Shown: piece by piece, positions 34,960-35,519 of the stretch
How positions within the stretch are numbered: the stretch's first letter is position 1
How the letters are laid out: each line of letters begins with the position of its first letter
DNA from: a virus
Strand: one strand, 5' to 3'
IMG/VR virus record: IMGVR_UViG_3300045988_048622
Span: 101,990-165,989 of that record
DNA length: 64,000 nt
Position numbers and translations under genes: made by a program
The notes under the pieces: generated by a model
Database searches by the model: none
The model's input: only the letters and a program-made list of their open reading frames with translations
What the model was told of the DNA's origin: nothing

Positions 34960-35519
34960 TAGTCAAGCCATTCAAATTCTCTACCTTCAAAATGTCTTGC
35001 AAAACAAGCATCAAACACTAGCTTTCCAAACTGAGTTGACACATATTTTGCAATTTCTTCAGATTTGCACGCTAGCATCCCGACACTGGAAACGGCATAG
35101 CCGACGTCAATGACAGAAGCGAAAAAGCCGAGACCCGCACTGCCGCCATAAGACGCGCAGCCGCCCACCAACGCGAATTTCTCGCCCTGATAACGGAAGT
35201 GACCAATGACCTCTGCATCCTTCGGAACTGATTTCATTCTAAAGAAGCGAACCCAGGGATACCATATAGTACCAGTTAACAGATTGAACTTGTGACCTTC
35301 ATTTAGCGCATCCAAGACTGTCTGCAACTTAGCTAGAGAATTTACAGATCTATTATAGTAAATAGTATCTCTAGTAACACACCCTAGATAGTTTACAGCA
35401 TCCTCATAGGTTCTTATCCGTCCCATAATGTTTTCTGGAACGATTTCAACATTGCCAGTTTCGGCATTATAGATGGGTTTATAACCATCTGGACATTCAA
35501 TTTCAATTGTCTTTTTCAT
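34959..35519 (-). CDS. DGR target protein 2 (remote VR2; probable C-type-lectin-fold ligand-binding protein)
   Basis: The region at about + 35079-35182 aligns to the TR at 61926-62024, with essentially all mismatches at TR adenines. Its protein segment LVGGCASYGGSAGLGFFASVIDVGYAVSSVG parallels the VR1 segment LLVGGDANSGGSAGLGFFYSSGGVGDAYSSVG. Confidence 0.7.
   Translation of the reverse strand: MKKTIEIECPDGYKPIYNAETGNVEIVPENIMGRIRTYEDAVNYLGCVTRDTIYYNRSVNSLAKLQTVLDALNEGHKFNLLTGTIWYPWVRFFRMKSVPKDAEVIGHFRYQGEKFALVGGCASYGGSAGLGFFASVIDVGYAVSSVGMLACKSEEIAKYVSTQFGKLVFDACFARHFEGREFEWLD
35079..35182 (-). repeat. DGR variable region VR2
   Basis: About 104 nt homologous to the TR; differences are confined to positions where the TR has A. 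Confidence 0.7.

What the first reader, a model, noticed from the sequence alone, without database searches (positions are those of the whole stretch)
35079..35182. Second DGR variable region 26.6 kb away, on the opposite strand, in a standard-code gene
The minus-strand gene 34959-35519 has a ~104-nt segment that aligns to the same TR, again with differences essentially only at TR adenines. It encodes LVGGCASYGGSAGLGFFASVIDVGYAVSSVG, parallel to the VR1 segment. Remote targets served by a single TR-RT are known but uncommon. Here the remote target sits in the minus-strand, standard-code block among small membrane proteins, while the RT and primary target sit in the TAG-recoded structural block. 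One non-A mismatch appears at the 5' edge of the alignment (TR c, VR2 t).
Basis: seen in the sequence. Interest (0 to 1): 0.8.

Follow-up and report, generated by a model that had tools for sequence, protein, structure and literature searches.

The report
Second, remote phage DGR target
A gut crAss-like phage uses one reverse-transcriptase "mutator" to keep rewriting two genes, its tail fibre and a small early-region protein 26.6 kb away on the other strand; a related small protein in the Quimbyvirus/LoVEphage group was already described as a distal target of this kind.

Summary
VR2 (35170-35079, minus strand) aligns without gaps to the template repeat (TR, 61930-62021) over 92 nt. 24 of 30 TR adenines are changed and 0 of 62 other bases (Fisher p = 7e-17).

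VR2 is actively diversified, not a fossil. In 120 homologues, hypervariability sits only at the residues encoded by TR AAY/TAT codons. [quoted passage not shown] One genome with a T->C change in its TR carries that C in both VRs.

Complete genomes (~186 kb) hold exactly TR + VR1 + VR2. VR1 and VR2 vary independently of each other.

The target is a 186-aa protein with no in-frame TAG, in the standard-code block. Homologous small proteins are remote second targets in Bacteroides phage Versailles and in LoVEphage. A distal, opposite-strand, non-structural second target was already described for Quimbyvirus, very likely the LoVEphage group (Benler 2021; also Dahlman 2025). This is therefore a new member of a known kind.

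The crAss-like papers I read do not report a remote target. A confident predicted structure matches no solved fold.

The parts
35079..35170 (-). VR2, the remote variable region (codons 117-147 of the target gene)
   Evidence: 92-nt ungapped match to the TR: 24 of 30 A sites changed, 0 of 62 non-A sites. Diversity in 11 close relatives is pi = 0.497 at A sites and 0.000 at non-A sites.
34959..35519 (-). VR2 target gene: 186-aa small protein, no in-frame TAG, no N-terminal hydrophobic segment. Matches PHROG phrog_11581; homologous to the small remote-target proteins of LoVEphage and phage Versailles.
   Evidence: ORF. phrog_11581, E = 3e-15. 832 close homologues. 232 clusters at 50% identity, nearly all 170-215 aa. 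31% identity to LoVEphage QVQ57199.1, E = 6e-10. 34% identity to phage Versailles WAK79127.1.
61930..62021 (+). Template repeat (TR), non-coding, between the VR1 gene and the RT
   Evidence: A-rich copy of both VRs. The full 92-nt core is identical to the window's TR in 19 of the 23 contigs where both TR and VR2 were retrieved; a 54-nt stretch of it matches exactly in 28 IMG/VR contigs.
61731..61822 (+). VR1, the adjacent variable region at the 3' end of the tail-fibre gene
   Evidence: 21 of 30 A sites changed, 0 of 62 non-A sites. All 23 related VR1 sequences are different.
60029..61849 (+). VR1 target gene: 606-aa tail protein with 6 in-frame TAG codons (read as Gln)
   Evidence: phrog_5302 'tail protein', E = 3.5e-82. 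TAG count.
62164..63438 (+). DGR reverse transcriptase, 4 in-frame TAG codons. The TTG start at 62164 is inferred. With TAG read through, the ORF ends at TAA 63438.
   Evidence: phrog_1423 reverse transcriptase, E = 5e-113. Pfam RVT_1, E = 1e-19. IGNYLSQ and YADD motifs.
42121..42191 (-). Amber-suppressor tRNA (anticodon CUA); context for the two code blocks
   Evidence: ARAGORN.
44584..44656 (+). Second amber-suppressor tRNA (anticodon CUA), at the point where strand and GC skew switch
   Evidence: ARAGORN. GC skew changes sign at about 44 kb.
35630..36088 (-). Upstream neighbour: a 152-aa paralogue of the N-terminal half of the VR2 protein family, without a VR
   Evidence: hhalign against the family alignment: 95.8% probability, E = 8e-9, over 82 columns.

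Best explanation
VR2 is a true, currently active second target of the phage's single diversity-generating retroelement (DGR).

Mechanism. The steps themselves are taken from established DGR biology; their sequence footprints are shown here. The TR (61930-62021) is transcribed. The RT encoded just downstream copies it into cDNA and misreads adenines. The cDNA then replaces the homologous 92-nt stretch in two genes, in the same reading frame:
- the tail-fibre gene next to the TR (VR1);
- a 186-aa gene 26.6 kb away on the other strand (VR2).
The TR codon design (AAY, TAT, AGC, GAC) cannot produce stop codons in that frame. The two VRs are rewritten independently of each other.

Addressing is inferred to rest on homology with the GC-rich VR ends. 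Both VRs differ from the TR by one fixed base at the 3' end (G where the TR has A at 62020).

Function (inferred, roughly 50% confidence). The VR2 protein has no signal peptide. Like the other ORFs of the tRNA-rich minus-strand block, its gene has no in-frame TAG. That block also carries likely counter-defence and repair genes. The RT and the tail fibre need amber suppression. The protein is therefore most likely a non-virion, early-expressed, hypervariable binding protein used in phage-host conflict, as Benler et al. proposed for the Quimbyvirus distal target. It is diversified late in one infection and used early in the next.
For: - A-specific TR/VR2 differences: 24 of 30 A sites against 0 of 62 non-A sites, p = 7e-17. 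Zero chance matches expected.
- In 120 homologues of at least 85% identity, entropy exceeds 3 bits (13-16 residue types) at the ten AAY-coded residues 121, 123, 124, 127, 134, 136, 137, 141, 143 and 145. It is 2.1 bits (6 types) at the TAT-coded residue 132. Elsewhere it stays below about 1 bit, apart from two residues near the C-terminus (178 and 180, at most 2 bits and 3-5 types).
- In 23 contigs carrying both the VR2 gene and their own TR, A sites changed 498 of 687 times. Non-A differences occur in only four contigs: multi-site in the two with indels, single-site in two others.
- Contig 059915 has a T->C change in its TR, and both its VR1 and its VR2 carry the C.
- Diversity (pi) in 11 close relatives: 0.015 in the rest of the gene, 0.497 at VR A sites, 0.000 at VR non-A sites. 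In 30 genomes whose gene has diverged to pi = 0.124, VR non-A sites stay at 0.0074.
- All 33 VR2 and all 23 VR1 sequences are different.
- The RT is of the DGR type, with IGNYLSQ and YADD motifs.
- No contig, including the complete ~186-kb genomes, has more than 3 pattern hits, which correspond to TR + VR1 + VR2.
- The same architecture occurs in two other phages. In Bacteroides phage Versailles the small protein lies 43 kb from the TR. In LoVEphage it lies 15 kb away on the opposite strand. The three small proteins are homologous.
- For the proposed function: no in-frame TAG in the minus-strand block. Nearby genes include NAMPT, a tRNA-ligase CPD domain and a radical-SAM-like protein, plus a weak Tad2-like hit. 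Published inference for Quimbyvirus: PMC8008677, and PMC12629997.
Against: - No read-level data could be examined, so activity is inferred from differences between genomes, not within one population.
- No Avd accessory gene was found in the window.
- No GC-rich hairpin lies downstream of either VR.
- No multi-base IMH/IMH* difference exists here, unlike in Versailles and LoVEphage.
- The functional part is untested. Nothing excludes that the small protein is packed into the virion.
- Its phage Versailles homologue is annotated 'tail protein', an HHpred-against-PHROGs call that may rest on VR similarity.
- The gene neighbourhood here shows less clear defence content than in LoVEphage.
Confidence: 0.85

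Rival explanations
1. VR2 is a fossil. It is an old duplicate of VR1, or the product of a single homing event, and is no longer diversified. The A-only differences then reflect diversification of VR1 alone.
For: In this one genome, every VR1/VR2 difference lies at a TR adenine. A frozen copy would give the same picture.
Against: - All 33 related VR2 sequences are different, and they differ at the A sites.
- Close relatives with pi = 0.015 in the rest of the gene have pi = 0.497 at VR2 A sites.
- Non-A sites are held identical to the TR even where the gene has diverged by 12%.
- A TR change is mirrored in VR2.
- Homology to the VR1 gene is limited to the 36-aa VR, so this is not a gene duplication.
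Confidence: 0.02
2. VR2 is actively diversified, but its protein is a virion component encoded outside the structural block: a small accessory adhesin or receptor-binding protein. On this view both targets serve host recognition.
For: - The best-studied phage DGR targets are receptor-binding proteins.
- VR2 carries the same 31-aa variable scaffold as the tail fibre.
- The phage Versailles homologue is annotated 'tail protein'.
- Second virion-displayed targets are known (tentaclins, PMC10743442; Bacuni phages, PMC8143477).
Against: - In all three phage lineages the gene sits among replication, recombination or early genes, not structural genes.
- Here it lies in the standard-code block, while the structural ORFs have many in-frame TAG codons.
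- VR1 and VR2 of one genome are no more alike than those of different genomes: 7.05 against 7.11 of 21 sites, p = 0.58. They are therefore not selected on one shared ligand.
- No homology to the tail fibre outside the VR.
Confidence: 0.3
3. VR2 is a neutral off-target. A chance TR-like sequence in a dispensable gene is being overwritten, with no adaptive value.
For: DGR cDNA can home into any site with enough homology and a suitable 3' end. The protein's function is unknown.
Against: - The pairing of a tail fibre with a homologous small protein recurs in three phages of very different genome size and organisation, each with a different TR sequence.
- The match to the query is a continuous full-length reading frame in 36 of the 37 related loci; the 37th is cut by a contig end.
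- Scaffold positions are under selection: the AGC-coded sites are 79-89% Gly, otherwise mostly Ser, and never Arg.
- The frame is shared with VR1, so the stop-free codon design applies.
Confidence: 0.05
4. VR2 varies through DNA-level gene conversion from VR1, not through cDNA made from the TR.
For: In one contig (069849), VR1 and VR2 match at 14 of 21 variable sites, against a mean of 7.
Against: In general VR1 and VR2 are uncorrelated (p = 0.58). VR2 holds many states that are absent from the VR1 of the same genome.
Confidence: 0.02

Closest known systems
Distal second DGR target of 'Quimbyvirus' (very likely the LoVEphage group); Benler et al. 2021, Microbiome 9:78 (PMC8008677). Also the distal second VRs in four gut prophage species; Dahlman et al. 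2025, Nature (PMC12629997)
   Same: - One TR and one RT serve a tail-fibre VR next to the RT plus a second VR far away, on the opposite strand, in a non-structural region (PMC8008677).
- I verified this architecture in LoVEphage MW660583.
- The LoVEphage small protein QVQ57199.1 is homologous to the window's protein: 31% identity over 150 aa, E = 6e-10.
- The layout is the same: about 190 aa, an internal VR, then about 40 aa of C-terminal helices.
   Different: - The phage here is crAss-like, about 186 kb, with an amber-recoded late block. The two targets and the RT therefore fall in different code regimes.
- The TR sequence and scaffold motif differ.
- The RT is one ORF, not frameshifted pieces.
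- The neighbourhood differs: tRNA genes and SPFH/NfeD-like membrane proteins rather than the methyltransferases and RtcB ligase of LoVEphage.
- Benler reports C-type lectin domains. My structure searches did not detect that fold for this homologue.
DGR cassettes of Zeta and Epsilon crAss-like phages (PMC12386605, PMC11054128)
   Same: - TerL is crAss-like: 26-29% identity to named Crassvirales, 42-45% to unclassified records from human faecal samples.
- Genome of about 186 kb, many tRNA genes, CUA suppressor tRNAs, amber suppression inside the RT gene, a GxxxSQ motif, no Avd.
- Cassette order is tail fibre, TR, RT.
   Different: In the DGR passages I read, those papers describe only the adjacent tail-fibre or RBP target (plus three TR-VR pairs in the Lera clade). 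No remote small-protein target is mentioned there.
Bordetella phage BPP-1 DGR (Mtd), the reference system
   Same: Adenine-specific mutagenic retrohoming from the TR into a VR. AAY codon design. Directionality marked by a TR/VR difference at the 3' end.
   Different: - Two targets, one of them 26.6 kb away on the other strand.
- No Avd found.
- No (G/C)14 + 21-bp IMH. No downstream GC hairpin.
- VR2 is internal, with 39 residues after it, not at the C-terminus.
Other two-target phage DGRs: Bacuni phages (PMC8143477) and tentaclins (PMC10743442)
   Same: One TR feeds two VRs. In Bacuni phage F1 one of the targets is distant from the cassette.
   Different: Those second targets are large, adhesin-like proteins: fimbrial-tip-like DUF1566 proteins, or a C-lectin domain followed by Ig domains. 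Both are thought to be displayed on the virion. The protein here is a 186-aa stand-alone protein with no such domains.

Membership tests
Diversity-generating retroelement (DGR) | Reverse transcriptase of the DGR clade ((I/L)GxxxSQ and YxDD motifs) | tested here: met
   IGNYLSQ and YADD are in the translated RT. phrog_1423, E = 5e-113. Pfam RVT_1, E = 1e-19.
Diversity-generating retroelement (DGR) | TR/VR pair that differs only at TR adenines | tested here: met
   VR2: 24 of 30 A sites, 0 of 62 non-A sites. VR1: 21 of 30, 0 of 62. p = 7e-17 and 5e-14.
Diversity-generating retroelement (DGR) | Ongoing diversification: variation among near-identical genomes confined to TR-adenine positions | tested here: met
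   pi = 0.497 at A sites, 0.000 at non-A sites, 0.015 in the rest of the gene.
Diversity-generating retroelement (DGR) | Information flows from TR to VR (a TR change is copied into the VR; VR non-A sites evolve in concert with the TR) | tested here: met
   Contig 059915: the TR T->C change is present in both VRs. VR non-A pi = 0.0074 against 0.124 for the rest of the gene.
Diversity-generating retroelement (DGR) | IMH at the VR 3' end that differs from IMH* in the TR | tested here: inconclusive
   Only one fixed difference: TR A62020 is G in 56 of 56 VRs. Versailles and LoVEphage show two shared fixed differences at the VR 3' ends. No (G/C)14 element.
Diversity-generating retroelement (DGR) | GC-rich hairpin/cruciform just downstream of the VR (as in BPP-1) | tested here: not met
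   DNA folds of the 100 nt spanning each VR 3' end and its downstream flank are no better than shuffles (z = -1.6 and -0.9). No shared stem.
Diversity-generating retroelement (DGR) | Avd accessory protein | tested here: not met
   No ORF lies between the VR1 gene and the RT. The ORF after the RT has no Pfam hit. Only 0.6 kb of sequence follows the RT in the window. PMC12386605 reports that most Zeta crAss-like DGRs lack Avd.
Diversity-generating retroelement (DGR) | The VR lies in a C-type lectin fold of the target protein | tested here: inconclusive
Small distal DGR-target protein family (phrog_11581; LoVEphage QVQ57199.1, phage Versailles WAK79127.1) | Sequence homology over most of the protein | tested here: met
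   phrog_11581, E = 3e-15, residues 25-175. 34% identity to the Versailles protein. 31% identity to the LoVEphage protein, E = 6e-10. Versailles against LoVEphage: 38-40%.
Small distal DGR-target protein family (phrog_11581; LoVEphage QVQ57199.1, phage Versailles WAK79127.1) | Stand-alone protein of about 180-210 aa with an internal Gly-rich VR-type motif followed by C-terminal helices | tested here: met
   60-sequence alignment with consensus LVGGxAxxGxxxGLGxFxSxxxxGxxxxxxGxLxCxSxEIAxHxSKYF. Lengths.
Small distal DGR-target protein family (phrog_11581; LoVEphage QVQ57199.1, phage Versailles WAK79127.1) | Shares one TR with a tail-fibre VR; encoded outside the structural module | tested here: met
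   Window. Versailles. LoVEphage.
Small distal DGR-target protein family (phrog_11581; LoVEphage QVQ57199.1, phage Versailles WAK79127.1) | Non-virion, conflict-related function | not testable with these tools
   Only gene context is available (PMC8008677).

The most novel reading that the evidence does not exclude
The roughly 190-aa proteins of this family may be a conserved class of cytoplasmic, early-expressed hypervariable binders built on a scaffold that is not a recognisable C-type lectin fold. Very different gut Bacteroidales phages (crAss-like, LoVEphage, Versailles) diversify them from the same template as the tail fibre. On this reading they act as an 'antibody-like' counter-defence or sensing arm of the phage. 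In recoded phages the arm is separated in time from its own mutator by the genetic-code switch.
Probability: 0.25. Interest if true: 0.8.

Novelty: new member of a known kind. Interest (0 to 1): 0.55.

Why it matters
- Large DGR surveys miss remote targets by design. Roux et al. 2021 (PMC8144416) say so explicitly, and the crAss-like DGR papers I read list only the tail-fibre target.
- This crAss-like lineage is abundant: 832 protein clusters at 90% identity and 37 IMG/VR contigs. It keeps a second, non-structural hypervariable gene.
- Homologous small proteins are the remote target in three phages that differ greatly in genome size and organisation (about 186, 71 and 58 kb). That argues for a conserved and still unknown function that benefits from constant diversification.
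- Cultured relatives exist (Versailles, and the LoVEphage isolates BI-TP1 and PV4-TP1), so the function can be tested directly.
- The protein's confident predicted fold has no solved relative. This bears on the rule that DGR variable regions sit in C-type lectin folds.

Tried and rejected
- Megablast of 33000-37000 against 50,697 phage records found nothing.
- Pfam found nothing for the VR2 protein or its neighbours.
- AF2 with 30 close homologues gave a useless model (pLDDT 42). A 60-sequence alignment of distant family members fixed this (pLDDT 92).
- A profile search against PDB sequences found nothing relevant. The same was true for the C-terminal 260 aa of the VR1 protein.
- I looked for a shared hairpin or conserved flank downstream of VR1 and VR2 and found none.
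- I tested whether VR1 and VR2 of one genome are co-selected. They are not (p = 0.58).
- I looked for a third target. No genome has more than three pattern hits.
- I considered a fixed IMH 'TCCAGTGTCGGG' and rejected it, because its AGT codon is hypervariable.
- I considered tentaclin membership and rejected it: there are no Ig domains and the architecture differs (PMC10743442).
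Full report
**1. The observation**

The window holds one long inverted repeat, 35079-35170 against 61731-61822 (92 nt, 84%). About 200 nt downstream of the second arm lies an A-rich third copy at 61930-62021. The three copies align without gaps.
- VR2 (35170-35079, minus strand) differs from the A-rich copy (the TR) at 24 of its 30 adenines and at 0 of 62 other bases.
- VR1 (61731-61822) differs at 21 of 30 adenines and at 0 of 62 other bases.
- Fisher p = 7e-17 and 5e-14.

The TR with every A replaced by N matches only these three places, and none are expected from shuffles.

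One step further 5', VR2 has T where the TR has C (TR 61929). Beyond that point the similarity is not real: 4 non-A mismatches in 12 nt. The core is therefore 92-94 nt, not 104 nt.

VR2 lies in an intact 186-aa ORF (34959-35519, minus strand). It is read in the same frame as VR1. The TR codons that contain A (AAY, TAT, AGC, GAC, GAG, and third-position A in CTA, GTA and GCA) cannot mutate to a stop codon in that frame.

**2. The element**

Downstream of the TR is a reverse transcriptase with the DGR motifs IGNYLSQ and YADD. It matches phrog_1423 at E = 5e-113 and Pfam RVT_1 at E = 1e-19.

Upstream of the TR is a 606-aa tail protein that ends with VR1 (phrog_5302, E = 3.5e-82).

Both genes contain in-frame TAG codons (4 and 6). 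So do the terminase (16) and the portal (32). ORFs of the minus-strand block from 1 to about 43.7 kb have essentially none. Two tRNA genes with a CUA anticodon sit at the junction of the blocks. GC skew changes sign there, at about 44 kb.

TerL is 26-29% identical to named Crassvirales and 42-45% identical to unclassified records from human faecal samples. Related contigs are 185-192 kb. This fits the 'Zeta' crAss-like phages, for which amber suppression inside DGR RT genes and the absence of Avd have been described (PMC12386605). I did not place the phage in a tree, so the assignment to Zeta is an inference.

**3. Is VR2 active or a fossil?**

A single genome cannot answer this. A frozen copy of an old VR1 state would also differ from the TR only at adenines. 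Related genomes settle the question.

(a) Protein level. 832 protein clusters match the VR2 protein. The best 120 are 85-95% identical to it. In their alignment, entropy exceeds 3 bits, with 13-16 different residues, at the ten positions encoded by TR AAY codons (121, 123, 124, 127, 134, 136, 137, 141, 143, 145). It is 2.1 bits at the TAT-coded position 132. Elsewhere it stays below about 1 bit, apart from two C-terminal positions (178 and 180) at up to 2 bits.

(b) TR against VR2 within contigs. 37 IMG/VR contigs carry the gene and 28 carry the TR. In the 23 contigs with both, VR2 compared with its own TR shows 498 changes at 687 A sites. Non-A changes occur in four contigs only: two with indels, and two with a single difference each.

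(c) Covariation. Contig 059915 has a T->C substitution in its TR. Both its VR1 and its VR2 carry that C.

(d) Diversity.

| Genome set | Rest of the gene | VR2, TR-A sites | VR2, non-A sites |
|---|---|---|---|
| 11 close relatives | 0.015 | 0.497 | 0.000 |
| All 30 comparable genomes | 0.124 | 0.4975 | 0.0074 |

The non-A sites are kept identical to the conserved TR while the rest of the gene drifts.

(e) All 33 VR2 and all 23 VR1 sequences are different.

VR2 is therefore being overwritten repeatedly from the TR.

A scan of the viral collection with the degenerate pattern gives at most three hits per genome, including the complete ~186-kb ones. There are exactly two targets.

VR1 and VR2 of the same genome are no more alike than VRs from different genomes: 7.05 against 7.11 matches at 21 variable sites, permutation p = 0.58. 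They are diversified independently and are not selected on one shared ligand.

**4. Target recognition**

The AGT codon is itself hypervariable across the population. Only the last difference from the TR is fixed: TR A62020 is G in 56 of 56 VRs.

There is no sequence similarity beyond the VR ends. No hairpin is shared downstream, and the folds are no better than shuffles. The BPP-1-type signals are therefore not seen, apart from a one-base IMH-like mark. Those signals are a (G/C)14 element, a 21-bp IMH and a cruciform.

In phage Versailles and in LoVEphage, the two VRs share two fixed differences from the TR at their 3' ends. That is the usual IMH/IMH* logic.

The 'opposite strand' placement may be less odd than it looks. 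Both genes point away from the skew and orientation switch at about 44 kb. If that point is the replication origin, both targets have the same orientation relative to fork movement. A reconstituted BPP-1 DGR worked best on targets oriented outward from the origin (PMC12875486). This is an inference: the skew could come from coding bias alone.

**5. The target protein**

- It has no Pfam match.
- It matches phrog_11581, a family of unknown function, at E = 3e-15.
- A search without a word index finds 232 clusters at 50% identity. Nearly all are stand-alone proteins of 170-215 aa.
- The 60-sequence alignment shows conserved helices (IKTFEDA; KLxIIxxALN), a YYP motif and a Gly-rich stretch LVGGxAxxGxxxGLGxFxSxxxxGxxxxxxG, which corresponds to the VR. 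These are followed by a conserved C-terminal part, LxCxSxEIAxHxSKYFxKLIF. The VR is therefore internal, with 39 residues after it.
- Homology to the tail-fibre target is limited to the 36 residues of the VR.
- AlphaFold2 on the deep alignment gives pLDDT 92 and pTM 0.85.

I therefore cannot confirm the C-type lectin fold that is usual for DGR targets and that Benler et al. reported for Quimbyvirus. I leave this open, because I could not inspect the model coordinates.

The N-terminus is hydrophilic, so there is no signal peptide (read directly from the sequence). The next gene upstream (35630-36088) is a paralogue of the N-terminal half without a VR. The next gene downstream overlaps the stop codon and encodes a protein that, read by eye from the sequence, appears to have a signal peptide and C-terminal membrane segments.

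**6. The same arrangement elsewhere**

tblastn finds a 34%-identical protein in Bacteroides phage Versailles (58 kb). It sits among recombination and replication genes. That phage has a tail protein, TR and RT cassette 43 kb away. The small gene matches that TR at 96 of 112 nt. The mismatches are at adenines, plus the two 3'-terminal differences it shares with VR1.

The Versailles protein in turn finds LoVEphage and related cultured isolates. In LoVEphage MW660583 the cassette lies at 48.3-50.9 kb on the minus strand. The small gene (33613-34197, plus strand) matches the TR over 113 nt, with mismatches only at adenines. The window's protein and the LoVEphage protein are 31% identical, E = 6e-10.

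Homologous small proteins are thus the remote second target in three phages of very different genome size and organisation, each with its own TR sequence.

**7. What is already known**

- Benler et al. 2021 (PMC8008677) described a DGR in 'Quimbyvirus' with a second target distal to the structural module and on the opposite strand. [quoted passage not shown] They proposed a role in phage-host conflict.
- The gene content around the LoVEphage small gene fits that description: a cytosine methyltransferase, Dam methyltransferases and RtcB.
- Dahlman et al. 2025 (PMC12629997) cite Benler's paper for LoVEphage. They report four prophage species with a distal second VR near counter-defence genes.
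- That Quimbyvirus and LoVEphage are the same phage group is my inference from these two points.
- Two-target phage DGRs of other kinds are also known (PMC8143477, PMC10743442).
- In the DGR passages I read, the papers on DGRs of Zeta and Epsilon crAss-like phages describe only the adjacent tail-fibre or RBP target (PMC12386605, PMC11054128).
- Roux et al. 2021 state that their survey could not detect remote targets (PMC8144416).

**8. Mechanism and function**

Shown here:
- one TR and one RT;
- two VRs rewritten independently at adenines;
- concerted evolution of VR2 with the TR;
- a stop-free codon design;
- selection on scaffold positions: the AGC-coded sites are 79-89% Gly, otherwise mostly Ser, and never Arg.

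Inferred:
- Addressing works through end homology plus the single fixed 3' difference.
- The RT is made only once amber suppression is available. This follows the published idea that recoding delays late genes, which I state from general knowledge. Both VRs would then be rewritten late in infection, on replicating genomes.
- The VR2 protein can be translated in the standard code. It would act early in the following infection as a variable binder in phage-host conflict.

The context is suggestive only:
- NAMPT at 10062-11624, a tRNA-ligase CPD domain at 29030-29437 and a weak radical-SAM hit at 38793-39752;
- a weak Tad2-like hit at 36344-36556 (E = 0.02).

The main functional rival is a virion-borne accessory adhesin. 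I give it about 0.3.

**9. Verdict**

Distal, non-structural second targets of this kind have been published for other gut phages, and the LoVEphage and Versailles small proteins are homologous to the one here. This is therefore a new member of a known kind.

It adds four things:
- the first such target I can find for a crAss-like phage;
- evidence that the remote targets of three very different phages are homologous;
- a confident predicted fold with no solved relative;
- the separation of target and mutator across a genetic-code boundary.

Noticed in passing
TR 61931, 61934, 61938, 61956, 61964, 61971, 61998, 62020 (adenines followed by G), and the matching VR1/VR2 positions: All eight TR adenines followed by G are almost always G in both VRs. 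Three of them (61931, 61934, 61964) are synonymous third-codon positions. There, 158 of 168 observations are G, 10 are A, and none are C or T. At AAY first positions, G is only 46% of the changes and 22% stay A (p = 2e-53). The G-only spectrum fits the model in which the RT re-uses the previously copied template base (PMC12875486). The roughly 94% conversion rate at neutral sites is not explained.
   Followed up: partly
35630-36088 (-): The gene just upstream of the VR2 gene is a paralogue of the N-terminal half of the same protein family (hhalign 95.8%, E = 8e-9). It lacks the VR-type Gly-rich segment.
   Followed up: partly
36344-36556 (-): A 70-aa ORF with a weak match to Pfam Tad2-like (Thoeris anti-defence 2), E = 0.021, below the Pfam cut-off. 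It matches phrog_3474 (unknown function) strongly, E = 3.5e-16.
   Followed up: no
31013-32971 (-) and 32987-33514 (-): A 652-aa SPFH/Band-7 (flotillin-like) protein with a long Ala/Glu/Lys-rich repeat region, which accounts for direct repeats D1, D2 and D5. It sits next to a membrane protein with weak NfeD-like similarity. This is an SPFH-NfeD pair in a phage genome.
   Followed up: no
10062-11624 (-); 29030-29437 (-); 38793-39752 (-): The standard-code block encodes a nicotinamide phosphoribosyltransferase (NAMPT; Pfam E = 3e-33), a protein with a tRNA-ligase cyclic-phosphodiesterase domain (E = 5e-8) and a weak radical-SAM-like protein (E = 0.0015). These are possible NAD-salvage and tRNA-repair counter-defence functions. 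Radical SAM genes also lie near the small DGR target in Versailles and LoVEphage.
   Followed up: no
about 42000-46000; tRNAs at 42121-42191 (-) and 44584-44656 (+): GC skew and AT skew change sign at about 44 kb, exactly where gene orientation and TAG usage switch. The two amber-suppressor tRNA genes flank this point on opposite strands. The other 19 tRNA genes all lie on the minus strand. This is a possible replication origin. If so, VR1 and VR2 share one orientation relative to the replication forks.
   Followed up: partly
IMG/VR contig 3300045988_069849 (L033/L072 and L055): In this 270-kb contig, VR1 and VR2 agree at 14 of 21 hypervariable sites, against a mean of 7. This could be a rare VR-to-VR conversion, or two homing events from one cDNA pool.
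   Followed up: no
L049 (contig 3300045988_059870), TR copy at 147-238: This TR copy carries G instead of A at four 5' adenines (TR positions 61931, 61934, 61938, 61942) and is unchanged elsewhere. It could be a TR variant, a partial VR-to-TR conversion or an assembly chimera.
   Followed up: no
L014, L022, L030, L036, and proteins of 180-192 aa: Some relatives have in-frame length changes of 1-6 codons in this gene. Two of these loci (L030, L036) gave no ungapped TR match, and two contigs (058617, 050979) lose register with the TR within the repeat. DGR-linked slippage in AAY runs, as discussed in PMC12875486, would produce such changes. I did not locate the length changes within the gene.
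   Followed up: no
ON453897.1 10181-10762 (L066 3863-4444): The small DGR target of Bacteroides phage Versailles (WAK79127.1) is annotated 'tail protein', although it lies among recombination genes. The label may come from similarity of its VR to tail-fibre VRs.
   Followed up: partly
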